Source: Azolla caroliniana (Eukaryota; Plantae; Polypodiophyta). From it: a DNA stretch of 64,000 bases. Where the stretch lies: contig JBHGNT010000008.1 of the NCBI GenBank assembly GCA_043228905.1, forward strand, positions 6,200,001 to 6,264,000, in the 5' to 3' direction. The translations under genes and the position numbers were made by a program. Shown here in pieces: positions 4,101 through 63,873 of this stretch. A model generated the notes under the pieces. That model saw nothing but the letters and a program-made list of their open reading frames with translations, searched no databases and was not told the origin of the DNA. Positions within the stretch are counted from its first letter, which is position 1; each line of letters opens with the position of its first letter.

Positions 4101-5854
4101 GAATCCAAATGAAGAAATGTTACTAAAGGCACTTATTGATCATTCTAAAATAGGGAGGGAAGGAGGAGACACACACAATCTATGTATCTGATCTCTGTTT
4201 TTTGTTTGATATATTATTCATCCCCCTTATCTACATATCTGATCTCTGTTTTTTGTTTTTATATATGTAATAATGTATGTATTACTATTCCCCCCCCTCC
4301 CATGATGATCATGAATTCATCACTTTTACTACCAATGTGATGGGGATCCATTGTTCAGATAGATTTGCAGATGTGTAGTTGTGTCGAGTCATGTCATGTC
4401 AAGATTCATCTCCATCTCCATCTCCATCTTTGGTCGAGAAAGTAAGTATGTAACTCCCCTCATGCTCTACCTTCCATATGGCTCAAGTTCTTCCCCAACT
4501 TAACAACTTTGTGTTCGGCTTCCTAGAGTTTTCCCTTCTCACTCGAATGACTCTCTTTCTCTCTATTTTTTTTGTAATTAGCTTATCCTAGTGATAAGTT
4601 GTTACACTACTAGCACTACGTCTTGGGTTCGAAACCCAATTTTCTCACTTCTTCACTAGATGCCACTGTGGAATGTAGGGGTTGAACCCATGACTCTCTC
4701 TCTCTCTCACCCACTTGTGTTTTGCTCCGTTGAGGTTTACCTTCTTTAGCTCCAAATGTTCAAGTCCAATTGTTTTGGTTGTGGGTTTTTTTCCTTGTCC
4801 TTTAAAATGTCCCCGAGTTTGCATCTCGAAACTCGCTTGATTTTGTTTCGTGTAGTTTTTAACCTGTATGGATGAGATCCATCTATCTAGTATCTCTCTC
4901 TCTCTCTCTCTCTCTCCCCTTTAAAGGGATGAAAAGGTTTCCCTCTCTCTAGTTGTCCCTTCCAAGGGACCCCAAATGCCTCTTTATCTATCTAACTTAA
5001 TGGGGTTGTCCCTTCCGAATGATTGCACATTTTTCTCCTTTGTATCTTTTATAATGGGCTTGTTCCTTCTAATGGGGTCTCTCTCTCTCTCTCTCTCTCT
5101 CATCTAGTGCACAAATATATTCTAGTTTGGACACATATATGGTCTCTAATTAAGCATTTGATTGTCCTTAAGAAAATTCTACGAATCACATGTGCTATGT
5201 CTCATGAGACTTACTTGTAATGTTTTTCTAGATTCCATAGGTCTATAGCATATAGGGCTTCCATGGATGTAAACAATATATCTACCTATCTATCTCTGAG
5301 ACAAACATGCAAGGTGGAGCATTTGATGCATGCAAAATTTCAAAGCACTTAAGGGGACAAACCCTACCAATCTTTGAGGATCAAATTACTATGAGGATTC
5401 ATCCTCTTTAAAGTTCTGCATGTAATACCAACCTTGAGAGGGGATAATTTATTATTTGCAAGAAAGATATACTTACCAAGGTAAAACCAGAATTTTTTTA
5501 TGGTTCAACTTTTAGTTCTCTCGTAGGTAGAAAATTTAAGATTAAATTGTCAATCATCATCCTACACGCAACATGGTACTTCTTTGCCAACGAAAGTATT
5601 CATGTCTCCACTACTCTTGCATTTAAATGGAAATGAAGGTGTCAAGTTTGAATTCAATAGTATAGTGAATGCTAGCTTGGTAACTTGGTAATGGTTCAAA
5701 GTGTTATTTCATTACTACACATGCACATTATGGCATCAAAACCATGTGAACCATTGGATATGTTATGCTTGGTGATCGATACTTTGCTTTCCATATTTGG
5801 AGAGTAGTTATTTAGAATAAATGGTAGAAGAAACATAGAGAGATTGGTGATTAG

Positions 5855-20140: not shown

Positions 20141-20255
20141 CATAGGACAGGATTCGAACCTTGTACCTCCATGTTAACGATTTTAAGCCTTACCACAGGA
20201 TTCGAACCTTGTACCTCCATGTTAACGATTTTAAGCCTTACCACTGTACTAGCAT
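20141..20255 (-). promoter_or_regulatory. tRNA-like Pol III A/B-box cassette in the Gypsy-A 5' LTR (B-box segment duplicated, 48 bp)
   Basis: Minus strand: A box TAGTACAGTGG (20251-20241); B boxes GGTTCGAATCC (20208-20198, 20160-20150); 43-nt A-to-B offset. Confidence 0.7.
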
Positions 20256-22221
20256 AATATGAGTTTTAATGTTATACTAAACTTTATCCCATCTAAATAT
20301 TCTAGATAAGCATGATAGAAAAAGTTATTCATGCATACACACTCGAGTTAAAAGAAAAGATGTTATAGATAGCTAATCATGCACATGTAGTGTGCATGAA
20401 AACTAAAGTTAGAAAAAGCATGATGCTTGCATGTGATAAACTTAGACTCTTCTATCACTATATAAGGAAGAGAGAAAGATGTATATGGTTGTTGATTTTT
20501 TATAAGGGTTGATTAATACAAAATATTCGTGGGATTCATGATTTTGCAATCTAATTCTCTCTTACAATCTAAGTATCAATTAATACACTATACTCGTGGG
20601 ATTCACAAGTTTCATATCTCCATCTTGCAATCTTTTCTTAACTAACAATATCTCATATTCTTCTTTCTCCTAGTCCAAAATCCCAGCGGTTCCCACCCGA
20701 CTCACGCAAACGATCTGGCGCCGAAAGGCACGACACAAGTGGTGAACCTGACGTGAAACTCGGATGGCAAGGAGATGGAAAATCAACCGGAAACTAACAA
20801 CATGATGGCGATGTTCGAGCAGATGCTACAAGAACAACGCGCGATGTCGGAGATGGCAGCAGCAGTAGAGCGGCTCGTTCAGCGGAGCGGGCAATTCAAC
20901 GGGAAGGATGTGTCACGATATTTGTGGGATTACAAGGCGGAAATGCTACGTTGCGGAATATCGGAAGGATTGCAGGTGACATCCTTCAATCGGGTGGCTA
21001 CGGACGAGATTTAAAGGAGTATCCACGGGATACGACAACAGAATCCAACGTGGGAAACATTTGAAGAAGCGCTAAAGACCACGTTCGCCATCGAGGACTC
21101 CTCCAAGGCAACGCGGAGGGGATTTGAAGATTGGGTGGAAACGCCAGACAAGGGGCTGAAGGTCCTCGATGTGTTTTCGGCATTCAAAAGTCGGTTTGGG
21201 AGGTTGTCCGCGAGATATCAAGCCATCCTCACATCGAACAAAGTGATCATGTTCTTACGAGCCGTGGATGTCCGGGACTGGAAAGATCTTGGAATGCTTC
21301 TAGAGGACACCACTACTGAGAGTGGCCTCACCAATACATGGGAAATTGTGCGGGATATCGTCGCGCGATACACAAAGAGGGGGCAATGGCTTGGTAGTGA
21401 AGAAAAGAGGGTTTCAGAACCAATTCCGAAACCAAGATCCGGATCAGAAGACCATCAACTGTGGGCTCGGGAGACTACGACCAAGAAGGGAATCGATGCA
21501 ACCACGGTGGAGTAGTTGCTAAAGGAGGTGGAGAATCTGAAAATCGCGATGGTGAAGAAGTCGGATGACCGTCCCACAAGTTCCAAGTATATGGACCGTC
21601 GATGCATATGGTGCGATAGCACCGAACATGATAGGAGGGATTGCGACGAGCACAAGGAGGCGCTACGACGGGACCTTATCTACTACGAGGGAAATCAGAT
21701 TCATTTGATGGACTCTCGGAAGCCACTCCGACCGAACTTTCGAAAAGGCGGCATGAAGACGGTCCTAAAGGAGGAAATAGCGGCAAAAAGCAATTATGTG
21801 ACAACCACGGGGATATGTGTGGGTGAGTCATCTGGAGCAAAGTCGTCTTTTTGGCGGGAAGTGCTAGAAAACCCCGAGAAAACTGACTCTAATGAGATCC
21901 AAAGCACCGCGGAAGGCATCCGAGAAGCTACGGGATGGGAGTGCCCCGTTGATAAGAATAGCGTGTACGCCCTATGCCAATTACATGAGGTGTATGTAGA
22001 TGAGAAACGACGGCGCACAAATGATGTAGTCAGACCATCAAAGATGCCAGAGAGTTGGAACTTTGAAGGGAAGGGAGTGTCATGATATGGCAAGACTTGA
22101 ACCCATGACCTTATGCTACATGGGTCGAGCTCTTACCATTAGACTATGAATTGTATTTTGTAAGATATTATTTTCATTTATGCTTTATCATAGAAAATTG
22201 ATGTATATTCCAGATCTCTTT

Positions 22222-22267
22222 GGAACATTCTAGAAGCTTCAGGATTATTCCTAAAAACACTATAAAA
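22222..22267 (+). promoter_or_regulatory. Perfect 4-unit heat-shock element plus TATA box in the Gypsy-B LTR (HSE also at 27367-27386 and 62557-62576)
   Basis: GAAcaTTCtaGAAgcTTC, about 20 nt upstream of TATAAAA (22261). Confidence 0.75.
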
Positions 22268-22573
22268 GGAGGCACAAGGCATTGTTTTGAACCAAATTGG
22301 TTCAACACCAGTCTTAAGCCTCTTAGTCGATTTGTACTTATCTTTCATATAATATAAGCGCTGCTGTCATCATCCTATTTCTCTCTCTCTCCTCTTCTCA
22401 CTTCCTCTCTCTCGGGAATCTTACGCAGTCTTGTCCTCTTAGTACTAATAGTACTACTCTTCTTAGTACTAATTCCATCTCTTCTTTAGTACTATTCCTG
22501 ACAGTTTGAACCAATTTGCTTCCTCCAACCTACTTGTTGTTCTCCCTCATCCTCCTATCCTTTTCCCCCTACT

Positions 22574-23731
22574 ATGGCTATTGTTAGCGCCTAAGAATAT
22601 CAATCCGTTTTCTCCGAGTTACAGTGCGTAAAAGAAAAGTTTGTTGCCCTGGAACAAGAAAACCAACGGCTGATAGGGGATCTGCAACAAATCGCTCTAG
22701 AAAAGCCACAAACGCAGCAACAACATGGGGAGTTAATGTTACGGGTGCAGCAACTCGAAGCGGCATTGCAACAACAAGGATCAAGTCCCCAAGGATTTCA
22801 TAAAGAGCCGAAGATTGGACTTCCTGTGAAATTTGATGGAACGTGATCACAATTCAGGGGATTCCTTAATCAGATACGATTAGTCCTCCAAATGCATCCT
22901 TCCCGATACCCCACTGATGCATCCCGAGTCGGTTTAATAGGCACGTTGCTTAGCGGCTTAGCCTTAGCATGGTTCGCTCCGCTTCTAGAAAAACAATCGC
23001 CCTTGCTTAATAACTTTGAAGATTTTATTAGTGAGTTCAAAGCCTGCTTTGGAGACATCGACAACATCAGGACGGCGATCAACAAGATCCGGCAATTGCG
23101 TCAAGGCGATCGTCCAGCCTCTGCCTATGCGGCAGATTTCCGCCTACTTGCTTCCGACATACCCTGGGATGATCAAGCACTAATGGAGCAGTTTCGCTAT
23201 GGCCTGCGAAATGATGTCAAAGATCTACTTCTAACCTTCCCTGAAGAACCAAAGTCTCTTACGGAGGCAATCAGTCGAGCGGTCCGATGTGACAACCGCC
23301 TCTTCGAACGGCATTCGGAACGACAATTACAGATACCACGCGCTAGGCCGGAGCCCACTTACGCCGCAGTCGCGGCTAGACCATTTGCATGAGACATTCC
23401 TCAAGCAAATACTTCGACACCGATGGAGATCGATACCATGCATCGACGCGGCCCGTTATCGGAAGAAGAAAAGCAACAGCGACGTGCAAATCAATTATGT
23501 CTTTATTGTGGTGGACCAGGGCATATCGCAATCAATTGTCCCCATAGGCCAAGAAGACAGGTAAATCAAATTGTAGCCTGTACTAAACCCGAGTCAATTC
23601 TTCCCTTAGGAGTGTCTGATAGTATTAATAGTACTAATAGAGTGTTTGATAGTATTCATAGTACTAATAGCCCAAGTATCTCAAATAAATTTGAAATCCT
23701 TAGTCAATTAGATGAAGAGTTAAACGATTGA
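22574..23731 (+). pseudogene. Gypsy-B1 gag
   Basis: Retrotransposon-gag-type sequence (ALAWF..., LRQG..., FRYGLR), PMEID and a CCHC knuckle; premature stops. Confidence 0.9.
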
Positions 23732-26700
23732 GTCCAGCCAAAATAGGAGCCGTTTGGTTGGACAACAGCCCTAGATCTGTACAACCCATTAGTGGTTCCA
23801 TTCCTTCCAAGCAAGTTAGCAATGTGTTCCTAGCCCAAGTCATTGTTAGTACTAAAAGTACTCCCCCAGTACCCGTCCTAGCACTTTTAGATTCCGGAGC
23901 TAATTCCTGTTTCATGGATCGAAATTTTGCCCAAGCTTCTCAGATATCCTTAAGAAAACTTCCTTGTCCCGCATCTGTAGTAGTCATTGATGGTCGTCCC
24001 ATTGCTTCCGGGAATATTGTAGAAGAATTAGAACCCATTCAAGTTGTCCTAGGTAGTTTTGTGTGTGTAATATCATTTAATATAATTAGTAGTCCAGAGC
24101 ATCCCATTGTCCTAGGATTACCTTGGTTTGAATTACATAATCCAGCCATAGATTGGAGAACAAGAGAAGTCCGATATCGACCACCCCAAGAATCAACTCA
24201 CCAAGTTTCGACCATTTCACTCCATCAACTACGCGAAGAAGGACCCAAGGAGGCAATGTTCCTATTTGCAATATCAGTACATCCTTCCAGCACTATTAAG
24301 AAGGACTCCTCAGTACAACTTCCAGCAAAATATCATCCTTATGCCGATGTATTTGACAAGGTAAAAGCCGGTACCCTTCCTCATCACCGTCCCTATGATT
24401 GTCCCATCGATTTACAACCAGGAGCCGAGCCACCATGGGGACCAATTTACAACTTGTCACCCACCGAGTTAGAAGTCCTTCGAGCCTACATAGAGGAGAA
24501 CTTGGCAAGCGGGTTATTTGAGTTAGAAATCTCCGGCCGGTGCACCCATCTTCTTTGTCAAGAAGAAAGATGGCTCACTTCGTCTTGTCAAGTTTTTTAC
24601 CAAAATCGACCTATGAGGAGCGTATAATCTCGTGCGGATCCGACCGGGAGATGAGTGGAAGACCGCCTTTCGCACGCGGTATGGGCATTTCGAGTATATT
24701 GTTATGCCGTTTGGCCTAACCAATGCACCCGCAGTCTTCCAACACATGGCAAATGATATATTCAGAGACCTCTTGGATATCTGTTTGATCATTTATCTGG
24801 ATGATCTGTTGATTTATTCGAAGACCCAGGAAGAGCACGATTCTCATGTACTATTAGTACTAAAGCGACTCCGCGAGAATGGTCTTTATGCCAAGCTAGA
24901 AAAATGTAGCTTTGACTGCAAGCAAGTGGAATTTCTAGGCTACGTCATCTCCTCAAAGGGCATCACCATGGATCCAGCTAAAATCCAAAGTGTACTCGAT
25001 TGGCAAATTCCACGGTCGGTACGAGATGTACAATGTTTTCTAGGTTTTGCTAACTTCTACCGTAAGTTTATACAGGATTATTCGAAGATTATTTTACCTC
25101 TCACACAACTTACGAAGAAGGGCCAAGCATTTCTTTGGTCCATAGAAGCAGATATGGCTTTTCGGCATCTTAAGAAAGCCTTTACATCAGCACCGATTCT
25201 AGCTCATGTGGATACAAGCAAACCATTCATCATGGAGGCCGACGCATCAGATTTCACCCTCGGTAGCATCCTTTCTCAACAAGGCGATAAAGAAGAGTTG
25301 CATCCGGTGGCTTTCCATTCGCGCAAATTCGATGTCGCAGAAATCAACTACGAAATACATGACAAGGAGTTATTAGCCATCGTGGATTCATTTGTACAAT
25401 GGCGGCATTTCTTGGAGGGCTCTCCACATCAGGTCATTGTCTTTAGCGATCATAAAAATCTTGCTTATTTTCAGAACGCTCGTGTACTAAATCGACGGCA
25501 AGCTCGGTGGGCGCAATTCCTCACGCGTTTCGACTTCAAAATCACATATCGACCGGGGAAGCAGCAAGGAAAAGCAGATGCACTATCACGGCGTTCATAT
25601 CTTGCACCTCGTCCTGGTGACACAACATTTGATAATCAAAAGCAAGTAATCTTGGGACCAACTCGATTGCACACGACGCGGATTTTTCACACCCCGATGG
25701 ATTCACGGATTACCGATGACATACGTGCAACCTTGAAGACGGATAGTTTTGCTCAAGACATCCTGGCGCACATTGATACTTCCCGGGCATCCTGTTCTTA
25801 GTCTCAACAACTAGGTATTGACTACCAACAATTCGAATATCATGATGGTTTGTTATTCTTTAAAAAGCGCGTATATGTCCCCGATTGCTCCTGTCGCCTT
25901 CAAATCGTCCAACATTGTCATGACACCCATACGGCGGGACATTTCGGTAGTACTAAGACGTTGGAGCTAGTGCAGCGATCTTTTTGGTGGCCCCACATGC
26001 GCCGTTTTGTCGACGACTACGTTCAGACCTGTGATGCTTGCTGCCGAGCAAAGATGCCACGACACCATCCATATGGCTTGTTGGAACCTTTACCGATTCC
26101 AAGTAAGCCATGGCAGTCTATTTGTCTTGATTTTATCATAGATCTGCCGGTCTCGAAGGGGTTCGATGCTATCCTAACCGTCATCGATCGATATACGAAG
26201 ATGGCACATTTTTTGCCATGTACTAAAGCCATCACTAGCGAGGAAACCGTCGTTCTTGTTATGCGTGAGGTATTTCGGCATCATGGCCTCCCAGACAGTA
26301 TTATCAGTGACCAAGGCCCGCAATTTGTCTCCAAACTTTGGCAGCATCTCTTCAAGATGCTCAAGGTCTCCTGCAACCGCTCCTCTGGCTACCATCCTCA
26401 GACCGACGGACAGGTGGAACTAACAAACCAAACGTTGGAGCAATATCTCCGGTGTTTCCTGAGTTATCAACAGGACGATTGGGCCGAGATTCTCCACTTT
26501 GCGGAGTTTGCGTATAATAATGCTATTCACTCCTCGGCTCGGGTCTCCCCATTTTTCGCTTATACCGGTTTCCATCCTCGCTGGTCGGTGATCGACACTC
26601 CAGAGCTACCTACCAACCCTCGTGCCGAGGATCATTTGGAGAGGCTACGCAAGATCTAGATGGATCTCTCTACTCATCTTCGTCATGCTCAACACACACA

Positions 26701-27181
26701 GAAGACTTATGTGGATCGTCATCAGATTCCCTCCTCTTTTGCCATAGGAGATCGAGTATGGCTCTTACGTCGTCACATCAAGACTACTCGACCGTGCGAC
26801 AAGTTGGATTATCGACGACTCGGTCCTTTCCGTATTACGGGGAAGATTAATGATGTCACCTTCTGCCGTGATCTCCCTCCGCAGCTTTAGATACATCCGG
26901 TTTTCCATTGTTCTCTTCTTGAACCTTATAAAGCAAACACCATTCCCGATCGTGTGACACCACCGCAGCCCCCGCTGGAGTTGGACGCCGGCCCGGAGTA
27001 TGAAGTTGCTGCCATCCTCGATTCCAAACTTGTTTGCAACAAACTTTATTATTTGGTCAATTGGCTCGGTTATAGTCCGAGCGAACGTACTTGGGAACTC
27101 GTCGAGCATGTTGCCAATGCACAAGATCTTCTTGCTGATGATTTCCACCGAAAGTATCCGGACAAACCCGGTCCGCAATGA
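23719..27181 (+). pseudogene. Gypsy-B1 pol (PR-RT-RH-INT-chromodomain), -1 frame to gag
   Basis: ORFs 23728-24627, 24632-25801, 25850-26659, 26660-26890 and 26954-27181 (EYEVAAILDSK..YYLVNWLGY..TWE); short RT deletion near 24588. Confidence 0.92.
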
Positions 27182-27230
27182 GCGCCGACTCGTTCCACTC
27201 GTCGTCTATAAGGGGGAGATAGTGTCATGA

Positions 27231-27295
27231 TATGGCAAGACTCGAACCCATGACCTTATGCTACATGGGTTGAGCTCTTACCATTAGACTATGAA
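27231..27295 (-). promoter_or_regulatory. tRNA-like Pol III A/B-box cassette in the Gypsy-B LTR (also 22093-22146 and 62427-62481)
   Basis: Minus strand: A box TAGTCTAATGG (27291-27281); B box GGTTCGAGTCT (27248-27238). Confidence 0.7.
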
Positions 27296-30200
27296 TTGTA
27301 TTTTGTAGGATATTATTTTCATTTATGCTTTATCATAGAAAATTGATGTATATTCCAGATCTCTCTAGAACATTCTAGAAGCTTCAGGATTATTCCTAAA
27401 AACACTATAAAAGGAGGCACAAGGCATTGTTTTGAACCAAATTGGTTCAACACCAGTCTTAAGCCTCTTAGCCGATTTGTACTTATCTTTCATATAATAT
27501 AAGAGCTGCTGTCATCATCCTATTTCTCTCTCTCTCTCCTCTTCTCACTTCCTCTCTCTCGGGAATCTTACGTAGTCCCTTCCTCTTAGTACTAATAGTA
27601 CTACTCTTCTTAGTACTAATTCCATCTCTGCTTTAGTACTATTCCTGACAGGGGAAAGGAAAAAAATTTCCGGCATTCAAACTCACTTCGGACATCGAGC
27701 AATGAACAGACTTAAAAAAGGTGTTCGAGGAGAGAATCCTCGATAGCTGGGTAAATTTTTCGCTTTGGGAATTACTCGGAATAGCGAAGGAGTTCCACGA
27801 TCTTCTTGTGGATCTCGTGAAGAGAAAAAGACAAAATACGGAGGAAAATGCTCCAAGGGTGAATGCAAATACCGTTCTAATGAATGACACCGAAGTGGAG
27901 GATGAAATTCCGAACTCCCACTACACAAGGCCACATTGGGCACGCGCAACTATGGAGACTCTGGTCCGAATCGGAAAAATCAAGGAGCCTGCACTAGCAT
28001 TGATAGATCACGGATCAAAGATCAATTTGATGTCCAAGGAGTTCTACCGAAAGGGGAAGTGGCCTATTAACACTAGTCATGGATAGAAGATCCGGGCAAC
28101 CACTAAAACAACAAAAGATTTATTTGCGGCTTGTCCGGATGTGATGGTGAAGATCAGAGATGTGGAGATTGACCAAAATTTCTTTGTGCAAGATGAGGTC
28201 TCACAGTCCGTGATCCTCAGACAAAACTTTATCACGACTTCATGGATGGAGACAAAGGTGCTCGATAGTGGAACGGCTTTTGCATGAATTCGGAGCCAAA
28301 ATGGAGGGAAAACCATCCAATTCCTAACCGTGCCATCAAATCACGAAAGGAACAAGAGAGATCTCTTGTCCCAAACAAAAATGGATTTTTAAAGCAAACT
28401 GTTGTAGAGTGGGGAAGTGATAGTCTGAGAAGCCCTGATACCCCACACAGGAAGAAACCTCTCGGAGCAAAATAAGTACGAATCGGTTCGGATGGGGCAT
28501 CTACATACACGGCCGTAACCGGAGTAATGAAGAAAGAATTCCGAAAGGTGCAAGATGAGTTACAGTCTGCATCAATAATAAAAGAAGACGAAGAAATCGT
28601 GGGAGTAGTCGAAGAAGTGTTCTATGGGAGCACGCTACAACGGCTTGAAGAAACTTCACAGATGAGACCCGGAAGAAACTTCGGATCGGTGGAGGTGGGT
28701 TCCTTTCACAAAACGAAGAAGAACAGTTTTGTGAGATGTTGGAGCAGCATGGAAGAGCGTTTGCATTCACATCGAAAGAGATAGGGTGTGCTGACCCGAG
28801 CCGATGGTGATCTTCACGATTGATCATGTGCCGTGGAACCTAAAGCCAATTCCGGTGCCACGGGCGCATATTCCAAAAATCATTGACTTGCTCAAGGAGA
28901 AGGTGGTGATGGGGATTCTAGAGCCATCAAACGCTCCGTACTCAAATCGATGGTTTACGATTCCGAAGAAGAATGGGTCACTCTGATTTATTCAAGATTT
29001 GCAACCGGTGAACAAGGTCACGATCCTAGATGACATTCCGATAAAAGGATGTGTGGTGGAAGAAAAAGATGAGACTATGGATGATCGGGGATGCCGAAAG
29101 TTCGTAGTCAACCATATTCGTGATTGCGAGAAAGTGTTACGGAAGTTAGAAGATGTGCACCTAACGCTCTTCGAGAGAAGTTGGCATTCAAACAAGAAGA
29201 AATATTGGTAGTCAGACATCTATGTGGACCCTACGGCTGAAGACCGTTGCCGGTCAAGATCGATGCGATTCAAGTTATGAAAGAAATATGCATGTCACAA
29301 TCCGAAGGCTGTAGATTTCTTGGGGCATGTGCATTCTATCACATATGGATTCCACACTATGCACACATTGCGGACCCACTCTATCACTTGTTGCAGAAGG
29401 GGAAGAAGTTCGAATGGAGACCGGAACATACCAAAGCCGTGAAGAAGCTCAAGAAATCACTACAGAGGGTAGAAGCACTTAGGAAGCTGAACTATGACCG
29501 ACCGATTATAGTAACGGTTGATACAAGCCCAACTGGGATCGAATGGGTCATCAATCAAGCCGATTCGGATGGTTCATGATATCCGATCCAATTCGGAGCA
29601 AAGGTTCTCAATGAAAGGCAACGCGGATATGCACAAGTTAAAAGAGAATTATGGGCAGTCGTGTCAGTGATAAAATCAGATCGAGATTACTTGATTGGAG
29701 CCGAAGTGGTGATTGAAACAGATTGTCTTCCGATACTTGGGATGATACGGTGTTGCACGATACCAGATGTGGCTATGCTAAGATGGATTGCATATGTAAA
29801 GTCACTCAATCCGGAGATACGACACATCTCTGAAAAAGACAACGCGGTAGTGGATATGCTATCAAGGGCACGGTTCGGAGACGACATAGCCGAATTCGAT
29901 AATGAAGAAATTTCCAAAAACTACTTTACTTCGGAGCACATATGCCGAGTGAACGTAATCCGAGAATTCCGGGAAGAAGAATATGAGGGAGAAAGCTTGT
30001 TGATCGGGAAAGTGCTACAAGAAATCGAGGAATCATCGGACAATAAAGAAAAGGGAGTTGTGATCCGAAGTAAGAAGTGGCAAGTCCAGAAGTTTTTCTT
30101 GAACAATGGATTAATCTGGAGGGAGCCGAAAAGACCGAATGGTATACCACTACGGGTAGTCGGAACAAAAGAGCAACAAAACCGGATAATGTCCGAATTT

Positions 30201-31399
30201 CACGAATCCGATTGGGCTGGACATCGGGGAACATGGGCAACATTTGCGCAGATCAAACAAAAATATTGGTGGAAGAATATGTACAAAGATGTAGCGGAGT
30301 TCACAGAAAGCTGTGAGAAATGTCAAATCTACTCCGGAGTTCGACACCGAGATGAATTACATCCGACATTATCAACCGACAATCAACTTCAAATGGATGG
30401 TCGACATTGTGGCCATGCCAACCGGGATCAGACAAAAGAAGTACTTGGTGTTAGCCTGGGAAGATCTAACAAACCAAGTAGAAGGACGGGCACTACGGAG
30501 GAAAACATGTTCCGCGGTATGCCAATTTCTCTTGGTAGAAGTGTTCTGCAGGTACAAGTGCGTCAGACAAGTAATTGCGAATCAAGGAGAACTTGACACT
30601 AATAAAGCTAGGGAATTCTTTGTCAGACATGGAGTACGGTTAACACTAACCACGACATACAATCTGGAAGCCAACGGGAAGGTCGAACAAGGACATAGTC
30701 CAATCGTCAAAGCACTTGCAAAAGCATGCGACGGAAGGGTGAAGGATTGGCCGCAGATGCTTCCGAATGCACAATGTGGGCGGATCGCACGACGCATAGT
30801 TCCGTGACCGGTTATATGCTAGCCGAACTTATGAACGGACAAGCACTGGTAATGCCGATGGAAACCGCGATTACAACATGGATAGTGCTATCGTGGAAGG
30901 AAGAAATGAGCCGGGAAGATCTACTAGCGGTCCGGATACGACAACTAGAGGGAAGACTAGAAGACATAGTGGAAGCAACACGTTGACTACAGGAAGCGCG
31001 ATTCTGGAACAAAGGTCGATTTGACACAAAGCATCGACTACGACCACAAAAGATTGAAGGAGATTGGGTGATCATCTATGACAGTAGTTTGGATCATCAA
31101 CATACAACGATACAGAAGTTTGCTAAAAGGTGGTTCGGGCCATACAAGGTTCGGAAAGTTTCCGACAACGGAACTTACCGACTATGTGAGTTGGATGGAA
31201 CAGTACTACGGGTGCCTATAGTGGGGAAACATGTGAAGATTTTCAAGAAGCGGATTGACGACGAACCTTATGTAATCTTAGAGAGGACTGACAACGAGGA
31301 GAAATCGGACAAAGATAGCGGTGATGCGGAAAGCGAAGAAAGTGGACTACAATTGATAATCGACATAAGGGGAGAATTGAGAGTGCTACGGATGAAGGT

Positions 31400-31905
31400 G
31401 AATAACAAGCATCGGGAACTTCGGCACATATCAGAGGATGTGCGGGTTCGGAGGGGGCGAGTGTCGTAGTGTAATTCGCACACTACATGAAATGTGTTAA
31501 AAATATATCCGATTGTAGTACGCATAAATAAATAAAAGAAAATATTTAAAATATTGTTACATATCCGTAGGCGAATAACAAGCATCGGGAACTTTGGCAC
31601 ATACCGGAGGATGTGCGGGTTCGGAGGGGGCGAGTGTTGTAGTGTAATTCGCACACTACGTGAAATATGTTAAAAATATATCCGATTGTAGTACGCATAA
31701 ATAAATAAAAGAAAATATTAAAAATATTGTTACATATCCGTAGGCGAATAACAAGCATCGGGAACTTCGGCACATACTGGAGGATGTGCGAGTTCGGAGG
31801 GGGCGAGTGTCGTAGTGTAATTCGTACACTACGTGAAATATGTTAAAAATATATCCGATTGTAGTACGCATAAATAAATAAAAGAATATTAAAAATATTG
31901 TTACA
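31400..31905 (+). repeat. 173-bp tandem triplication spanning the 3'UTR-PPT-LTR start of Gypsy-A
   Basis: PPT/LTR junctions at 31462, 31635 and 31808, exactly 173 bp apart. Confidence 0.92.
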
Positions 31906-32795
31906 TGCATAGGGCAAGATTCAAATCCTGTACCTCCATGTTAACGATTTTAACCCTTACCACTGTACTAGCATATTATGAGTTTTAATATTATACTAAA
32001 CTTTATCCCATGTAAATATTCTAGATAAGCATGATAGAAAAAGTTATTCATGCATACACACTCGAGTTAAAAGAAAAGATGTGATAGATAGCTAATCATG
32101 CACATGTAGTGTGCATGAAAACTAAAGTTACAAAAAGCATGATTCTTGCATGTGATAAACTTAGACTCTTCCATCACTATATAAGGAAGAGAGAAAGATG
32201 TATATGGTTGTTGATTTTTTATAAGGGTTGATTAATACAAAATATTCGTGGGATTCACGAATTTGCCATCTAATTCTCTCTTACAATCGAAGTATCAATT
32301 AATACACTATACTCGTGGGATTCACAAGTTTCATATCTCCATCTTGCAATCTTTGCTTAACTAACATTATCTCATATTCTTCTTTCTCCTAGTCCAAAAT
32401 CCCAGCGGTTCCCACCCGACTCACGCAAACGATCCGGCGCTGAAAGGCACGACAACGTATAGGATCAGATAAATCCTAGAATCGTCGGCTAGTTGCTGAA
32501 TGTACATACATGGGTCAGAGTCAAATTGGCGGTATACAAGTTTCTTGATGTAGGAGTCAAACTTCTGGTACCATATCCTCAACGCTTGTTTCAAGCTATA
32601 TAGACTTTTCTTTAACCGACATATGAGGTGACAGTCCTCCCCCGTCACCGTGAAGCCTGCTGGTTGAGACATATAGATGTGGATTTGTATACTTTACAAC
32701 ATTAGGTTATTGCTTATATACTAAGCCTCAACTATGTGGACGAGTTCACACTAGGACAGATACAAATTGGAAGGAGTCGATCTTTTATGCCAACA

Positions 32796-33049: not shown

Positions 33050-35643
33050 TGTTGAGCGAACAAGCTCAACCGGATTTGGATTGGCTGAATAACCCAGATC
33101 CGAATCGGAGTTCGGATCAAAGAACCGGATTGGTGTCCGAAACCAGGAGCCGGATCATAATCCGGATCAATATAAACTAGTAGGCCGTTTGAGGCCTACG
33201 AATCTAGCCTAGTACGTAAGCATATGGGAGTCTGTGTTAGTCCCTCGTATGAGCATTGAAGTACATGTCAATACTTCGGTCAGACCTTTGAAGGACTTGT
33301 ATAAAAAGTGTTCTATAGGACATCGTATGTATAGAATATTATTATTTTGAATTGAGTTTACTGTTCTTCTCTCTATGCCTTTCCCGCGTACTCTCTGTGT
33401 GTGACTAAGCTTTCCATTAAACCTGTGCATATTCTCTGTTGCTATACAGTGAAGCCTGTTTCATTTACAAGCTTCCACACGCTACTTTTCACATGGTATT
33501 AGAGGGCGAGTGTGAAAAACCTCTGCTGTTGACAAGCCATTTCCATAGACGAACCCTAACTTCCGAAAAAACACAGACCGAAAAGAAAAGAAATGGACAG
33601 AGGTATGGAAAGCACCGAGAAAAGTACTATGGCAAGAAAGAACATAGAGAGAGAGAGTGCTGGAGGAAGCACGCCGATTTGGATAAATCCGGATCGGCAA
33701 GGCTGGACAAGGGAATCGGCAAAGCTTGCAGTATGCCAAAGAATCAGAAGGATCGGAAACCGAAAAGAGCTGAAAAGGGCCAACCTTTGTGATGAAAATA
33801 AGGTGAACTCGATGAAGAAGACCACTTCCGGATCGTAGGAAGTGTGGTATGTTGATTCTGGAGTATCTAACCACATGACGAGCCATAGCAACCAGGAGAA
33901 ACTGGGAGTTGTTGAAACTAGAGACGACACTCCTCACCCGATTGTGCATGTCGGAGAAGTCCCCTTGAGTCATGTCAAACAAAAAGGGAAGGTTCTGATC
34001 GTGCTTCATGTCCCGACAATCAAAAGAACCCGGTGTCGGTCGGGCAGATTGTCGACCAGGGGATGCAGGTGCGGTTTACACACCTCGGGTGCTTCATTGA
34101 GGAAGAGGGCCAGATCATCGCACAAGGGCACTAGGACGGAAGGATGTTCATCCTCGACACCAATGACGTTGGCACTGCTCTATTCGCCAAAGGACAAAAA
34201 GTCGAGTCAGAGATCGACTTATGGCACAAGAGAATACGCCACGTAAACTATCAAAGGCTTCCAGATTTGCAATCGAAACATGTGGTTTTCAAATTGCCAA
34301 AATTTAGTGGCCGGAAGGCCCAAATATGTGAAGCCTGCCAGCTTGGGAAACAACACCGACTTCCATTCTCCACCAAATGAAACCGCAAACATAACAAGCT
34401 CGAATTGATACATTCGCATGTATGGGGACTGATACAAAACGTTAGTCTTGGGGGGCAACCGATATTTCGTCTCCTTCATCGATGACTACTGCTGGCACAT
34501 GTGAATCTATCTCATTGAGAAGAAAAACAAAGTCTTCGACTGTTTTCCGAACATGCAAAGTCTTATCAAATAGGAAACGGAGCAAAAGATCAAGTGCCTA
34601 TAGTTGGATGGCGGAAAAGAGTATTTTTCTAGCCAATACAACAACTATCTTCAACATAAAGGAATTCGGAGGGAATTCAGATGCTGATATACATCGGAGC
34701 AAAACAACGTTGCCAAGAGGAAGAACCGATCGATTGTGGAGGCGGCAAGGGTGATGCTTGAAGAGAAGAGCATGCCCAAGTTCTATTGGGCCAAAGCGGT
34801 TCGGACGACTGTGTACATTTAAAACCGAATTGGGGATAAGGTGTCACCACACGAGCTATATTTCGGGCGTATGCCGAATCTACCGACTCAGACCCCTGAC
34901 TCAGATCCGATTCTGGAAGATGAGACCAGTGAGCTCGAATCGATCTGGGCAGAAGAAGAAGAAGGATTCGTTACTCTAGATGAGAGCCCAATCTCATTTC
35001 GGCTAAGTGGGCTGAACGAGCGACTGAGTCGGAATGACCAGTCAAATGAAGACCCGTGCTCTCCCTGTGCAAGGTGTTAGGAAACAGGTCCCTCCGGATG
35101 GGAAGTGAGAAGGCCTCAGCCGAAACCGGATGTGGGAGACCCGGCTACGGAAGACCCTTTTACCGGCCGGCAAAGGAGTCCGGAGTGGGAAACGGAGAGC
35201 TAATTAAGTAGTAGGAATGTGGTTGTAATTAAGCTATGAGTGTGGACGGACGAACCGGAATCGGTATGCCGTTCCGGATCCGGACCGATCCCGAACAGGT
35301 GCGGATGGCACCGTTTTGTAATACAGACCAGAAACCTATTTAAAGGCCCGGATACAATGTAATAGTTAGCGGTTAATTAATGAAAGCTTAAGCGTTGTTA
35401 TATCTCTGTGTTAATTGCCGTTCTGTCTTAATTGTTATATCTTACGCGTGTTATGAAGACGATCCTAATAAGTAACTTGATTAAGTCGGATTAAGCGTTG
35501 AAGTCTAATCCGGTTGCCGTAACACCCTTTGGTGAAGTGTCTCCCGTAGACACCCTGTGTTAGGCCATTGTCCGGCCCGAAGAGTTAACACAGTTTTTGG
35601 CGACCACGATTCCTGTTTTTGTAGTGAACGACAACACGGATGG

Positions 35644-38600
35644 ATGTTTAGATCAACGCACGACCTGGTTACAGATCGAACTCGATGCCTTGCCGAAAGG
35701 CAAACGAGACGTGAGGCTTTCCAGCAAGCGGCGCAGGAAATTAGAGCGGATCGCTCGTTTTCCAACGTAATCCGGAGAGTAGCGGAGGACTCCCATTGGT
35801 TACAGCAAACATCGCACCCGGACGACGGCAACAGCCTAAGCAGCCTCCGGGAAACCGAATCCCTTCTCCACGCGTTGGCAAACGGAGAAGGCGAAGTAGA
35901 GGCCTTTTCAGCATATGAATCGGACTCTGAAGGGGAATACAGCGTGCACACGAACTACCGTAGCAGCAACGAAACCCCGGGCGGACCGGAGGACGAAGGA
36001 TCGGATACCTTATCGACACCGGAACCGGAACCGGAAGTGCTAACGCTGGAACCCCCGGAACCAGTAGAAGAAGAACGACCTCCGACACCGGAAGTCAAGG
36101 AGGAGAGGCCTCCGTCACCAAAGGAAGAGAAACAACCGACACCGGAATCAAATCGGGAAAGACCACCGACACCGGAGAAAATTCCGGAATGAGCACCAAC
36201 ACTACCAGCCCGCGCACCGACACCGGACAACGACATGCCGTTCCAGTACTCCAAGTATAGAGATGATCTGGACGCGGAAGCTCATGTGCACGCCTTTGAA
36301 CAAACATGGGAAGCCAACCATGTGTCCCAGCGACTGACACCAGAGGAAGAAGAACGCTCTAAGATAGCAGAGTTTGGCGTCACATTGGAGGGACCGGCAG
36401 CAAGATGGCGCCGGACGCAGGACCCGTCTACCATCAACACCTTTGCAGATTTAAAAGCTAAATTCATGCATTTTTTTCAAAAGGAGGTGGACCAGACCGT
36501 AATGGTAGGCTTATTTTATACCATCTGGCAAGAGGCAGGGGAGAGCATTCCCCAATTTGTCATCCGGTTTCAACGGATGCATAGTCAGCTTACCCGTGCA
36601 CCCCCGGAGGAGGAATTACGGACGATATTCCTAAACGCGCTCCGGGAACCCCTACGCACGGTTTGGACGGTAATCGATTTCCGCACAAGTACCATCGACC
36701 AGGTCATTGACCGGGTGAAAGAGATGGAAAAGACAAGCTCCTGGCTCACACTGGGCGCACTTCAACGGGCGTTACCAACTGATGAAGACCTCCGGTTTCG
36801 GCAAGCAATACAGTGCACAACCTGCTTGAATTCCGGACACTCGGCTCTAGAATGCACTATGAGGACGCAATGTGTAATCTGTCAGTCCAAGAGCCATACG
36901 ACGGATAGGTGCGAGTATAATCTGTTGACTCGGCAAGCACCGCCCGTCTGACAAATTGAGCCACGCAGCAGCCGGGATGAAGAAGACGAACGCTGGCGGC
37001 GAATGGACCATGACCGACCGGCACAGGATGTACGGTATGGCGAGCGACGGGAAAATAATGTCCGGTACGGCGAGCGACGGGATAATGATGTCCGGTACGG
37101 TGAGCGACGGGAAAATGATGTCCGGTACGGTGATCGGCGAGAGAACTATGATCGGCATGATCGGTACCAGGATTACAATAGACGATACGAACAGTACGAC
37201 CGGGAGCACTCCCCCAGGTATCGTCAGCAACGGGAGGAATACGGCAGATATAACGGGCAACCCCATCAAGAGTACCGTAATAAGAAGAGCTTTAACAAAA
37301 AACAGCATTTTAAAAAAGGCGGCTACCCCCGGGATCCGGAACAAGGCGTTCCAAGTAGCCAACCGGTACAAAACCCCGCGCGTACCGTAGGACCTACCCC
37401 GGGTACAACAGACAATGCTGAATCTAGCAATGCCCGGAAAGCCTACTGCTACTACTGCCGACAGGAAGGCCATTATAGTAACCAATGCCCGGTGAAGAGC
37501 TATGAAAAACGACCGGCGGTAAATATGGTAGTCCTTGAGGTGGCAGACTTGCAGCAGGTGACCACAAGGTCGAAGGGCATGGCCAAAGAATGGGAGACAC
37601 AGGAGACCATCCGCAAACAAGCAACGGAATGGGTAAAGAAAGCAAATGAGCAGAATGTCACAGACTTACAACAGCAAAAGGAGAACACCGCAGGGCTTGC
37701 CGGCGGTAGTCACTCCGAGAACGAGACATGGCAGGCGTTGCAAGAATGCCAGATTATGTTACCACTAGGAAGACTCCTACAACTCGTGCCGAGATTCACG
37801 GAAGGACTGAAGACGGCCATGACGGTAGGAGAACCATCACCGGCACCGGTACTCTTCTCGAATCCGGAGGAGGGACCAACAGTGGTAGACACCAGCAGTC
37901 CGGTAATCACTGCCATTGTAAAAGGGAAAGAACTCCCCGACACAGTTATAGACGGAGGCTCTGGGGTAAATGTAATAAGCCTCCGGACGTGTGAGGACCT
38001 AAGAATCCACGAGTGGGAGCCGTGTCCATTTTGGTTGCAGATGGCCGATACAAGCTCAGTGCGGCCGACAGGATTAATACGGAAATTAGAAGTCACCGTC
38101 GGCGGGCATACATTTCACATTTCAGCCGTAGTGCTACAATTACAGGCACAAGGCGCCTACCCGCTATTGCTGGGGCGGCCATTGTTGAAAACGGCACATA
38201 TCAAACAGAATTGGCGAAAAAATATAATTACATTCCGGCGAGGAAAAGCCAAGGTACGGGTACCAACACAGCCAAGGACGAGCACTGGCAAGGAATGTAC
38301 AACGTTGTATGCGGAATGCGTCAACATGCTAGAAGGGTTAGCGGACGAAGAAGAAGCTCAATACCTGCAGGAAAACCCGAAGATCATACCCCTCTTCGAA
38401 ATTGACATTGCCGAAGCCGTAGCACCGTATTTACCGCAACCGGAAGAGGCGGAAGCAGAACCGGATAAAGACGCAATCCGGGAGTTACGGCAAGCGCAGG
38501 AAACGTTGGAACGGGAAATGGCCGTTTCACAGCGCGTAAAAGCATCGCAACTGGAAGAGGTGAATTTAGGCACCACGGACGAAGCAAAACCGGTGCACAT

Positions 38601-41478: not shown

Positions 41479-41556
41479 CGTCACACTAATAATAATAATA
41501 ACTGAAAAAAAGAAAAAGAAAAAAACAAAAAACAATCATGCAAAAGCGAGGAATGA

Positions 41557-44199: not shown

Positions 44200-44691
44200 C
44201 AAGGGTCGGTTGTGGATTCGACGTACAAGGTACTGTCCCACGGGCGTGCCATGTGTTACCGGCCGGCAAAGGAGTCCAGAGTGGGAAACAGAGAGCTAAT
44301 TAAGTAGTAGGAATGTGGTTGTAATTAAGCTATGAGTGTGGACGGACGGACCGGAATCGGTATGCCGTTCCGGATCCGGACCGATCCCGAATAGGTGCGG
44401 ATGGCACCGTTTTGTAATACAGACCGGAAACCTATTTAAAGGCCCGGATACAATGTAATAGTTAGCGGTTAATTAATGAAAGCTTAAGCGTTGTTATATC
44501 TCTGTGTTAATTGCCGTTCTGTCTTAATTGTTATATCTTACGCGTGTTATGAAGAAGATCCTAATAAGTAACTTGATTAAGTCGGATTAAGCGTTGAAGT
44601 CTAATCCTGTTGCCGTAACACCCTTTGGTGAAGTGTCTCCCGTAGACACCCTGTGTTAGGCCATTGTTTGGCCCGAAGAGTTAACAGACCT

Positions 44692-62411: not shown

Positions 62412-63873
62412 TGTCATGATATGGCAAGACTCGAACCCATAAGCTTAGGTTATATGGGTCAAGCTCTTGACCATTAGACCATCTGTTGTAATACGTAGGA
62501 TATTATTTTCATTTACATTTTATTATAGGAAATTAGTGTATATTCCAGATTTCTCTGGAACATTCTAGAAGCTTCAAGATTACTCCTGAAAACACTATAA
62601 AAGAGGGCACTAGGCATTATGTTGAACCAAATTGGTTCAACGCCAGTCTTAAGCCTTGTAGCCACCATTGTATATTCTCTTCATATAATACATATCTTTC
62701 TTATCATCACTCTCTCTCTCTCTCTCGATCTCTCTCTTTCTCTCCATCTTGCTCACTCCTTCCTTCTCTCGAAGAAGTTCTACACCTCTCATAGTACTAA
62801 TCCTTTGTTTAGTACTAATTCCTTCTCTATCTCAGTACTGTTCCTGACAGTTTGAACCAATTTTCCTACCTTCTATCTCTCTCATTTCCTACTAATCTCT
62901 TATTCCTCTTTTCTTTCATCCCATGGCCACTGTTAGCGCTGAAGAATATCAATCTGTTTTCTCGGAATTTCAATGCTTGGAAGAGAAGTTCCATGCTTTG
63001 GAACAAGAAAACCAATGGTTGCTGGGAGATCTTCAACAAATCTCCTTAGAAAAGTAGCAAACGCAACAACAGCATGGGGAACTTGCGTTACGCGTGCAAC
63101 AATTCGAAGCAACCATCGTAATGATGCAACAACAAGGGCTCGGAACACAAGGGATTCATAAAGAACCCAAGATTGGCCTTCCCACGAAGTTCGATGGAAC
63201 GCGATCGCAGTTTAGAGGGTTCCTTAACCAGGTACGATTAGTTATCCAAATGCATCCTTCCCGATATCCCACCGATGCATCACGAGTGGGTTTAGTAGGC
63301 ACTTTGTTAAGTGGCTCAGCGTTGTCATGGTTCGCTCCACTATTAGAAAAGGAATCTCCGTTACTCAACAATTCTGAAGAGTTTCTAGGTGAGTTTAAAG
63401 CATGTTTCGCAGGTACTGACAGCATCAGGACCGCAATTAACAAAATTCGGCGATTACGCCAAGGTGACTGTCCAGCCTCCACATACGCTGCAGATTTTCG
63501 CCTACTCGTCACCGATATCCCTTGGGATGATCAAGCGTTGATGGAGCAATTCCGTTATGGTTTACGCAACGACGTCAAGGATTTACTCTTGACCTTCCCC
63601 GAAGAGCCAAAGTCCTTAACAGAAGCAATCAGTCGCGCGGTGAGATGTGACAACCGCCTCTTTGAGCGACGTTCGGAAAGACAGCTACAGATGCCGAGGC
63701 CAAGATCAGAGCCCACCTACGCCTCAGTGGTAGCAAGACCTTTTCCGAGGGAGTCATATAATGTGCCTCCAGCGAATACTCCGAATCCAATGGAGATTGG
63801 CACTACACGTCGTCGAGGGCCATTATTCGAAGAAGAAAAGCAGTGACGCCGTACAAATCGACTATGTCTTTAC
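62412..63873 (+). mobile_element. Gypsy-B2: second Tcn1-like chromovirus copy; 5' LTR plus gag; interrupted in the zinc knuckle
   Basis: LTR 62412-62849 homologous to 22078-22503; gag from 62923, ORF 63094-63846. Confidence 0.93.

What the first reader, a model, noticed from the sequence alone, without database searches (positions are those of the whole stretch)
22078..22146. The same antisense A/B-box design in an unrelated chromovirus LTR: a candidate shared LTR module
Seen: all three Gypsy-B LTRs (22093-22146, 27238-27291, 62427-62481) carry minus-strand TRGTCTAATGG..GGTTCRAGTCT at 43-44 nt spacing, 15 nt from the LTR edge and pointing outward. Between B1 and B2 the boxes are retained while the spacer differs, and an internal stem covaries (acccatG..Catgggt vs acccatA..Tatgggt). 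There is no T-run before the LTR edge, so the 3' LTR would transcribe antisense across the PPT and chromodomain and the 5' LTR into host DNA. Inference: two distant gypsy lineages with the same position and orientation suggest convergent capture of tRNA/SINE heads as a functional U3 module. This is my best candidate for an undescribed system here; novelty is not verified.
Basis: partly seen in the sequence, partly recalled or inferred. Interest (0 to 1): 0.82.

Follow-up and report, generated by a model that had tools for sequence, protein, structure and literature searches.

The report
Backward tRNA promoter in retrotransposon ends
A group of self-copying plant jumping genes keeps the two promoter signals of a tRNA gene, backwards at the outer edge of their terminal repeats, while the sequence around them has drifted to chance similarity; they likely recruit the cell's tRNA-transcription factors there, and this would help keep their own neighbouring promoter open.

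Summary
All three Gypsy-B LTRs carry a minus-strand A box and B box at tRNA spacing (43-44 nt). The elements are Tcn1-like, self-priming chromoviruses of a non-seed plant.

In relatives found through integrase alone, 21 of 29 LTR clusters carry the module near the U3 edge, against 1 of 29 on the plus strand and 0.26% of shuffles. The A box, B box and the tRNA variable-loop motif stay 64-80% identical, while spacer, flanks and synonymous sites sit at about 40%.

The missing terminator is not general either (14 of 21 clusters have T4 in the LTR tail or PPT). Non-chromovirus Gypsy-A has the same orientation, but about 110 nt from its edge.

Best reading: a selected, DNA-level Pol III (TFIIIC) promoter back to back with a heat-shock/TATA Pol II promoter, likely acting on chromatin. 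Binding, transcription and function are untested.

Nearest known: Helenus/Cassandra (non-autonomous; Helenus sense) and foamy-virus U3 Pol III units. The scan noted antisense tRNA relics in retrotransposon tails of other genomes; my look-ups did not return this LTR module.

The parts
22078..22503 (+). B1 5' LTR (TG...CA), 97% identical to the 3' LTR
   Evidence: (415 of 427 aligned)
22094..22146 (-). tRNA-like A/B module, tRNA positions 8-61: A box 22146-22136, variable-loop motif 22111-22107, B box 22103-22094
22147..22200 (.). AT-rich stretch between the A box and the heat-shock elements; predicted TFIIIB landing zone
   Evidence: 83% AT over the 45 nt upstream of T8 across 21 cluster rows; role inferred
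22223..22245 (+). Perfect heat-shock-element array (alternating nGAAn units)
   Evidence: present within the first 260 nt in 13 of 20 LTRs, 0.075% of shuffles
22261..22267 (+). TATA box of the Pol II promoter, about 33 nt before the inferred start
   Evidence: sequence
22294..22306 (+). Inferred RNA 5' end, complementary to the bases just after the 5' LTR (self-priming)
   Evidence: the same match in B2 at 62629
22504..22517 (+). Self-priming PBS (not a tRNA PBS)
22575..27181 (+). B1 gag-pol: Ty3 capsid, protease, RT, RNase H, integrase, SH3 and chromodomain, broken by stops and frameshifts
   Evidence: Chromo E 3.3e-11
27210..27222 (+). Polypurine tract
   Evidence: sequence; the same junction in relatives
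27223..27650 (+). B1 3' LTR
27239..27291 (-). A/B module of the 3' LTR: A box 27291-27281, B box 27248-27239; family-specific hairpin at about 27232-27284
62412..62849 (+). B2 5' LTR (82% to B1 over aligned positions), followed by self-priming PBS and gag
62428..62481 (-). A/B module of B2: A box 62481-62471, B box 62437-62428
20151..20251 (-). A/B module in the Gypsy-A 5' LTR, with a 48-nt duplication carrying a second B box
   Evidence: PWM 32.3; no null hit at 20 or above in 30 shuffled windows
31918..31970 (-). A/B module in the Gypsy-A 3' LTR, B box decayed
   Evidence: PWM 20.0

Best explanation
Autonomous Tcn1-like chromoviruses carry, antisense at the outer end of U3, the A box, variable-loop motif and B box of a likely tRNA- or SINE-derived head, kept far better than the DNA around it; it likely binds TFIIIC and would place TFIIIB on the AT-rich stretch beside the element's heat-shock/TATA promoter, predicted to keep that Pol II promoter open and shielded from silencing.

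Step 1, shown: the module sits at tRNA spacing, antisense, 16-63 nt from the LTR edge in most families.
Step 2, shown by comparison: the conserved bases are the promoter-type ones; the tRNA fold is not conserved.
Step 3, inferred (about 0.75): it works as DNA, as a type 2 Pol III promoter.
Step 4, inferred (about 0.45): the benefit is chromatin-level, like a tRNA-gene barrier at the element's edge. Any antisense RNA is a by-product whose end varies between families.
For: Loci were chosen by integrase/chromodomain only. 21 of 29 LTR clusters have 3 or fewer mismatches to textbook A+B boxes on the minus strand. Controls: 1 of 29 on the plus strand, 0.26% of 1160 shuffles, 0 of 25 in LTR positions 150-300, 0 of 29 in the 150 nt upstream.

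Mean pairwise identity in 21 rows: A box 0.64, positions 44-48 0.79, B box 0.80. Against that: spacer 0.41, upstream 0.40, downstream 0.41, four-fold integrase sites 0.415. For 88 pairs under 60% amino-acid identity: B box 0.78, positions 44-48 0.71, four-fold sites 0.39.

The 44-48 motif was not in the search pattern, yet 20 of 21 rows have it with at most 1 mismatch. G53, T55, C56 and A58 are invariant in 21 of 21, while positions 57 and 59 vary as in the box consensus. Within the B-box CpG, G57>A occurs 9 times and C56>T 0 times. Collapsed high-coverage contigs are intact (2 or fewer mismatches) in 30 of 36, low-coverage single copies in 15 of 28 (p 0.014), which fits selection during replication and decay after insertion.

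Acceptor, D, anticodon and T stems pair no better than column shuffles. ARAGORN tRNAs in the window and in 60 of 77 metagenome loci scanned. The HSE starts 48-86 nt inward of T8 in 13 LTRs. TFIIIC sites and tRNA genes act as heterochromatin barriers in yeast (PMC3395662, passages).
Against: There are no binding, transcript or chromatin data. The retained A box at fixed spacing, and T4 in the LTR tail of 10 of 21 clusters (3.9 expected, though these rows are related), fit a real short transcript, and a B box alone suffices for a barrier at ETC sites. Box conservation among the 21 rows is partly by construction, because rows were kept at 4 or fewer mismatches; this also biases the C56 count. The published SM-Tcn1 LTR lacks the module by eye, so Tcn1 replication does not need it. 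7 of 20 LTRs lack a perfect HSE within 260 nt. An upstream CAA is not enriched (6 of 21 against 4.2). All 77 loci come from one series of assemblies and several are near-copies, so the coverage test is not fully independent.
Confidence: 0.45

Rival explanations
1. The module is a true antisense Pol III transcription unit and its RNA is the selected product: a short RNA that tunes the element's own expression or silencing, folded as a Dicer-type hairpin in family B, much like foamy-virus U3 pri-miRNAs.
For: The A and B boxes are both kept at initiation spacing. T4 lies in the LTR tail in 10 of 21 clusters and in the tail or PPT in 14 of 21. The family-B hairpin has z -3.6 to -5.3 and is somewhat stronger on the minus strand. 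Pol III units in foamy-virus U3 are a precedent (PMC3993851, passages).
Against: The RNA would share neither sequence (spacer at background identity) nor fold (z of -2.9 or lower in only 4 of 22 cluster rows, one of them the misaligned L071). Its 3' end would range from about 65 nt to over 1300 nt. 2 of 21 clusters have T4 inside the A-B spacer.
Confidence: 0.22
2. The motifs act on the plus-strand genomic RNA as sites complementary to the D, variable and T loops of a host tRNA. They would anneal it next to the PPT to aid packaging or strand transfer, like the 3' segments of the Ty3 bipartite PBS.
For: The position at the 3' end of the genomic RNA and the antisense orientation fit. Conservation of the variable-loop motif, which is not a textbook promoter box, also fits. 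Ty3 has PBS segments in its 3' UTR (PMC4974528, passages). A tRNA-like tract in HIV-1 U3-R is recalled, not checked.
Against: These elements are self-priming and have no tRNA PBS (PMC6317226 passages). Wobble-tolerated transitions are not favoured: 15 of 273, against 16 of 147 intolerable ones. Position 59 takes A, G or T and position 10 is mostly T, which no single tRNA would pair with.
Confidence: 0.12
3. Neutral relic: a SINE or tRNA head inserted into an ancestral LTR and has simply been inherited.
For: SINE insertion into LTRs is the proposed origin of Helenus and Cassandra, and Repbase holds 'not a few' LTRs with tRNA-like parts (PMC10886601). A free repeat with a similar A/B head lies at window 4584-4635 and in L042. 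SM-Tcn1 lacks the module.
Against: The boxes stay at 61-78% identity where spacer, flanks and synonymous sites are at 39-44% in the most distant pairs. A-B spacing stays at 43-44 while the B-to-edge distance ranges 16-63 nt.
Confidence: 0.08
4. The conserved words bind something other than TFIIIC (a Pol II transcription factor or a replication/integration protein), or they attract integrase the way Pol III genes attract Ty3, and only resemble A/B boxes by descent.
For: A-box position 10 departs from the textbook G in 16 of 21 rows. The module abuts the integrase attachment end. Retrotransposon targeting to Pol III genes is well known (PMC5911963, search listing only).
Against: The invariant and free positions match the B-box consensus base by base, and two separate blocks keep tRNA spacing.
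Confidence: 0.13

Closest known systems
Helenus TRIMs / TRIMp3 (Kojima 2024, PMC10886601; parts 1-4 of 6 of the text, passages and one supplement passage read)
   Same: [quoted passage not shown]
   Different: Helenus is non-autonomous and 311-1263 bp long. In the supplement rows I saw (Helenus-1_SMo and bivalve rows) the boxes are in sense orientation, able to drive the element's RNA. Here the elements are autonomous (5.6 kb), the module is antisense, and a Pol II HSE/TATA promoter is kept. That paper expects autonomous partners to use Pol II and not share such LTR sequence.
Cassandra and Ajax TRIMs (PMC10886601; 10.1101/2023.07.14.548913, passages)
   Same: A Pol III internal promoter conserved in plant LTRs whose other sequence diverges freely.
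   Different: 5S-derived, non-autonomous, and in Cassandra the Pol III promoter replaces Pol II.
Foamy-virus U3 Pol III pri-miRNA cassettes (PMC3993851, passages)
   Same: A/B-box Pol III units inside U3 of an autonomous retroelement.
   Different: There the hairpin and terminator are the conserved product. Here neither is conserved across families, and the tRNA numbering is retained.
tRNA-gene and ETC/COC chromatin barriers bound by TFIIIC (PMC3395662, passages)
   Same: The proposed mode of action: TFIIIC-bound boxes limiting heterochromatin or insulating a promoter, often in divergent arrangements.
   Different: These are host loci in yeasts. ETC sites use a 3'-extended B box, whereas this module has an A box and a 5' (44-48) extension and travels in a retrotransposon.
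Tcn1 clade chromoviruses, such as SM-Tcn1 (PMC2864245 passages, section 7 and supplement S3; PMC6317226 passages)
   Same: gag-pol layout, chromodomain with aromatic-cage residues, self-priming; R-region and protein motifs resemble SM-Tcn1 by eye.
   Different: The SM-Tcn1 U3 is a tandem array with no such antisense A/B module by eye. In the passages I read, neither paper mentions Pol III boxes in Tcn1 LTRs.

Membership tests
Helenus / TRIMp3 | tRNA-derived A and B boxes in the LTR | tested here: met
Helenus / TRIMp3 | Non-autonomous and short (up to about 1.3 kb), no coding region | tested here: not met
   5.6-kb element with gag-pol and chromodomain
Helenus / TRIMp3 | Pol III promoter oriented to transcribe the element | tested here: not met
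   Minus strand in 21 of 29 clusters, plus strand in 1 of 29; the Helenus rows seen are sense
Functional tRNA gene | Cloverleaf with paired acceptor, D, anticodon and T stems | tested here: not met
   Stems pair no better than shuffled columns; ARAGORN 0; no Rfam tRNA hit at E up to 10
Type 2 Pol III promoter | A and B box consensus at workable spacing | tested here: met
Type 2 Pol III promoter | TFIIIC binding and Pol III transcription | not testable with these tools
   Only contigs were available; no raw RNA reads
Type 2 Pol III promoter | Oligo-T terminator downstream | tested here: inconclusive
   T4 in tail or PPT in 14 of 21 clusters; absent in family B
tRNA-derived SINE insertion | Head followed by body, tail and target-site duplication | tested here: inconclusive
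   Only the head remains in the B LTRs and no tail is visible before the LTR edge; no donor SINE was identified
Tcn1 chromovirus | Integrase C-terminal chromodomain with aromatic cage | tested here: met
   Pfam Chromo E 3.3e-11; Y/W/Y residues invariant in alignment A1; cage positions recalled
Tcn1 chromovirus | Self-priming instead of a tRNA PBS | tested here: met
   criterion from PMC6317226
Tcn1 chromovirus | Placement in the Tcn1 clade on an RT tree with reference elements | not tested
   No reference set was held; likeness to SM-Tcn1 was judged by eye
Foamy/BLV-type Pol III pri-miRNA | Conserved hairpin with a terminator at its 3' base | tested here: not met
   Hairpin only in family B and close kin, and family B lacks T4

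The most novel reading that the evidence does not exclude
Autonomous LTR retrotransposons of non-seed plants have domesticated a tRNA-gene promoter as a portable TFIIIC/TFIIIB barrier at the outer edge of U3, back to back with a heat-inducible Pol II promoter. It gives each new insertion its own anti-silencing boundary, and at least two distant gypsy lineages in one genome acquired it.
Probability: 0.3. Interest if true: 0.88.

Novelty: new variant of a known kind. Interest (0 to 1): 0.72.

Why it matters
The Pol III promoters in plant LTRs that I found described belong to non-autonomous elements, where they serve as the element's own promoter. A clade-wide antisense copy in autonomous elements cannot serve that purpose, so it points to another use. 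If it is a barrier, it is a cis-acting way for retrotransposons to resist silencing and it scatters TFIIIC sites through large genomes. It may also account for part of the thousands of 'tRNA-like' sequences reported in some plant genomes (more than 10,000 in a fern and a pine; 10.1101/2021.12.21.473619, passages); that link is untested. The family set is a natural mutagenesis of a plant type 2 promoter and suggests TFIIIC may read tRNA positions 44-48.

Tried and rejected
Whole-genome scan of LTR families: no genome is held. I used the window's six or so LTR families instead. Only Gypsy-A and Gypsy-B score (20-45); the 11 other LTR stretches score 5.6 at best.

Rfam and ARAGORN: nothing at the module.

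Viral and prokaryote collections: one weak locus and no relatives of B or of Gypsy-A. Conservation of the Gypsy-A module is therefore untested.

Expression: no RNA holder listed. One contig of a run guessed to be RNA covers 27223-27279 but shows neither strand nor transcription; not used as evidence.

Protein atlas: gave nothing.

The B-hairpin columns pair slightly above shuffles with G-U allowed (0.66 against 0.61, p 0.009) but not on Watson-Crick pairs alone (p 0.085). Related rows inflate this.

Upstream CAA motif: not enriched.

Tree (quick method): module-bearing rows occur in all main branches.

Rows left out: 3 of 77 loci ending in the gene; 19 of the other 74 without a detected junction or 130 nt of LTR. 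At least 7 of those 19 show the module by PWM. L069's junction is spurious but stays in the 29. 7 clusters had no alignable row, and L071 (A box deleted) was dropped from 22 to 21. 10 of 74 were left out of the coverage test.

A Drosophila mdg1 Pol III paper is recalled only; I could not read it.

Full report
SETTING. The window is a nest of LTR retrotransposons next to a host bHLH-like gene. B1 (22078-27650) has LTRs that are 97% identical and a broken gag-pol ending in a chromodomain. It sits inside a non-chromovirus element, Gypsy-A, whose named relatives come from Adiantum and Riccia and which shares only 20% RNase H/integrase identity with the B lineage. B2 (from 62412) is a truncated relative of B1. 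The bases after each B 5' LTR are complementary to a stretch about 33 nt past the TATA box. This is the self-priming signature reported for Tcn1 (PMC6317226 passages). It places U3 at about 22078-22293, so the module is in the outermost 70 nt of U3. The host is a non-seed plant by inference; earlier scan notes say moss or fern, and I did not settle it.

OBSERVATION. A strict A..B scan finds 4 hits in 64 kb: the three B LTRs and the Gypsy-A 5' LTR, all on the minus strand, against 0.017 expected. The sequence maps onto tRNA numbering 8-61 with a class I variable loop (numbering recalled). It is not a tRNA. In family B it folds into a long hairpin. In three DNA runs holding 1014-1480 laid contigs each, all 13 listed differences of 3% or more fall at 27256-27276 or at A-box positions 10-12; none fall in the B box or at A14, G18 and G19. 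Depth there is weighted toward collapsed high-copy contigs.

RELATIVES. An alignment of integrase-end and chromodomain homologues fetched 77 metagenome loci, the best 80 of 162 confirmed stretches, without reference to the LTR. 55 of the 74 examined had a PPT junction and 130 nt of LTR. With two window LTRs they form 29 clusters at 80% identity. 21 clusters carry the boxes antisense with 3 or fewer mismatches and 18 with 2 or fewer. The plus strand gives 1, neighbouring windows 0, and shuffles 0.26%. With spacing freed to 25-70 nt, 13 of 18 best hits are at 43-44; four others tie with a 43-44 hit seen, and one is the deleted L071. The distance from C61 to the LTR edge varies from 16 to 63 nt among cluster rows. 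A further, more diverged chromovirus LTR in L067 also has the module.

WHAT IS CONSERVED. Three blocks are kept: the A box through G23, positions 44-48, and the B box. Their pairwise identity is 0.64, 0.79 and 0.80, against 0.40-0.41 for spacer and flanks and 0.415 for four-fold integrase sites at 62% mean protein identity. The contrast holds in the most distant pairs. Box conservation among kept rows is partly circular. The non-circular tests are the presence count, the 44-48 block (20 of 21 rows within one mismatch), and the coverage split (30 of 36 against 15 of 28 intact). No tRNA stem pairs above shuffled columns, and a strong hairpin appears only in family B and a few others. Selection therefore acts on linear motifs at fixed spacing, as expected of a DNA promoter.

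ARCHITECTURE. From the edge inward: TG end, 16-63 nt, B box, A box (pointing outward), an 83%-AT stretch, heat-shock elements 48-86 nt inward of T8 (perfect in 13 of 20 LTRs; 0.075% of shuffles), TATA, start site. From general knowledge of type 2 promoters (recalled), TFIIIC on the boxes deposits TFIIIB upstream of the A box, which here is the AT-rich stretch beside the HSE. Terminators vary: T4 lies in the tail in 10 of 21 clusters and in tail or PPT in 14 of 21, but family B has none.

MECHANISM. I favour a chromatin role, because neither the sequence, fold nor end of the potential RNA is conserved while the factor-binding geometry is. TFIIIC sites and tRNA genes are barriers in yeast (PMC3395662 passages). 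The kept A box suggests an initiation-competent complex, so an antisense RNA is probable and could be the selected product (rival 1). Annealing of a host tRNA to the genomic RNA, as in Ty3, fits the position and the 44-48 block, but not self-priming or the substitution pattern. A neutral relic is unlikely.

TWO LINEAGES. Gypsy-A's LTRs score 32.3 and 20.0 on the chromovirus-trained matrix, with no null hit at 20 or above in 30 shuffled windows; the other LTR families in the window score 5.6 at best. Its module lies about 110 nt from the edge, is decayed in one LTR, and has no perfect HSE nearby. No relatives were retrieved. Convergence is possible but not shown.

KNOWN WORK. Helenus is the nearest kind but is non-autonomous and, in the rows seen, sense. 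That paper notes that many Repbase LTRs have tRNA-like parts and analyses only the short elements, so some autonomous cases may already sit in Repbase undescribed. The SM-Tcn1 LTR lacks the module by eye, so it marks a subclade. Nine searches of the held library returned no paper whose listing or read passages describe antisense A/B boxes in autonomous plant LTRs. Term look-ups in PMC11656987 and the P. patens T2T preprint also found none. Subscription journals, Repbase reports and bioRxiv supplements were not seen. Earlier scan notes report antisense tRNA relics in retrotransposon tails of other genomes, judged family-specific passengers. Look-ups by sequence, place and words found no note on this module.

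VERDICT. Real, selected and clade-wide; function inferred. New variant of a known kind, interest 0.72.

Noticed in passing
window 4584-4700 (+); L042 301-538 (-): A free interspersed repeat with a sense A/B head, a T4, and then an inverted B-box-like motif, upstream of the host bHLH-like gene. L042 has two tandem heads. Its A-box style matches several chromovirus LTR families, so it is a candidate donor or a derived element.
   Followed up: partly
window 22223-22245, 27368-27390; many of loci L002-L075: Perfect heat-shock-element arrays are conserved in these LTRs (13 of 20 within 260 nt), suggesting heat-inducible elements as described for ONSEN (PMC11656987 passage).
   Followed up: partly
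SM-Tcn1 record in PMC2864245 supplement S3: By eye, the bases after the 5' LTR are complementary to a stretch after its TATA box, that is self-priming, which that paper reported not finding. Its R region resembles B1's.
   Followed up: no
window 22078-27650: If the host is a fern, as one earlier scan note says, Tcn1-like elements would contradict the PCR survey in PMC2864245 section 7, which found none in ferns.
   Followed up: no
window 31396-31914: Three tandem 173-nt copies spanning the Gypsy-A PPT and LTR start; the 5' LTR has a 48-nt duplication of the B-box half at 20151-20245.
   Followed up: no
window 22073-22077 and 27651-27655: B1's target-site duplication is imperfect (3 of 5 bases match).
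   Followed up: no
window 35160-44686: A young gypsy element (LTRs 98% identical) with a 595-codon extra ORF at 41623-43410 that has no Pfam match; it has no A/B module.
   Followed up: no
window 1494-2891 (-) and 690-1013 (-): Host gene pieces: a 465-codon frame with internal repeats and no Pfam match, followed by a bHLH fragment.
   Followed up: no
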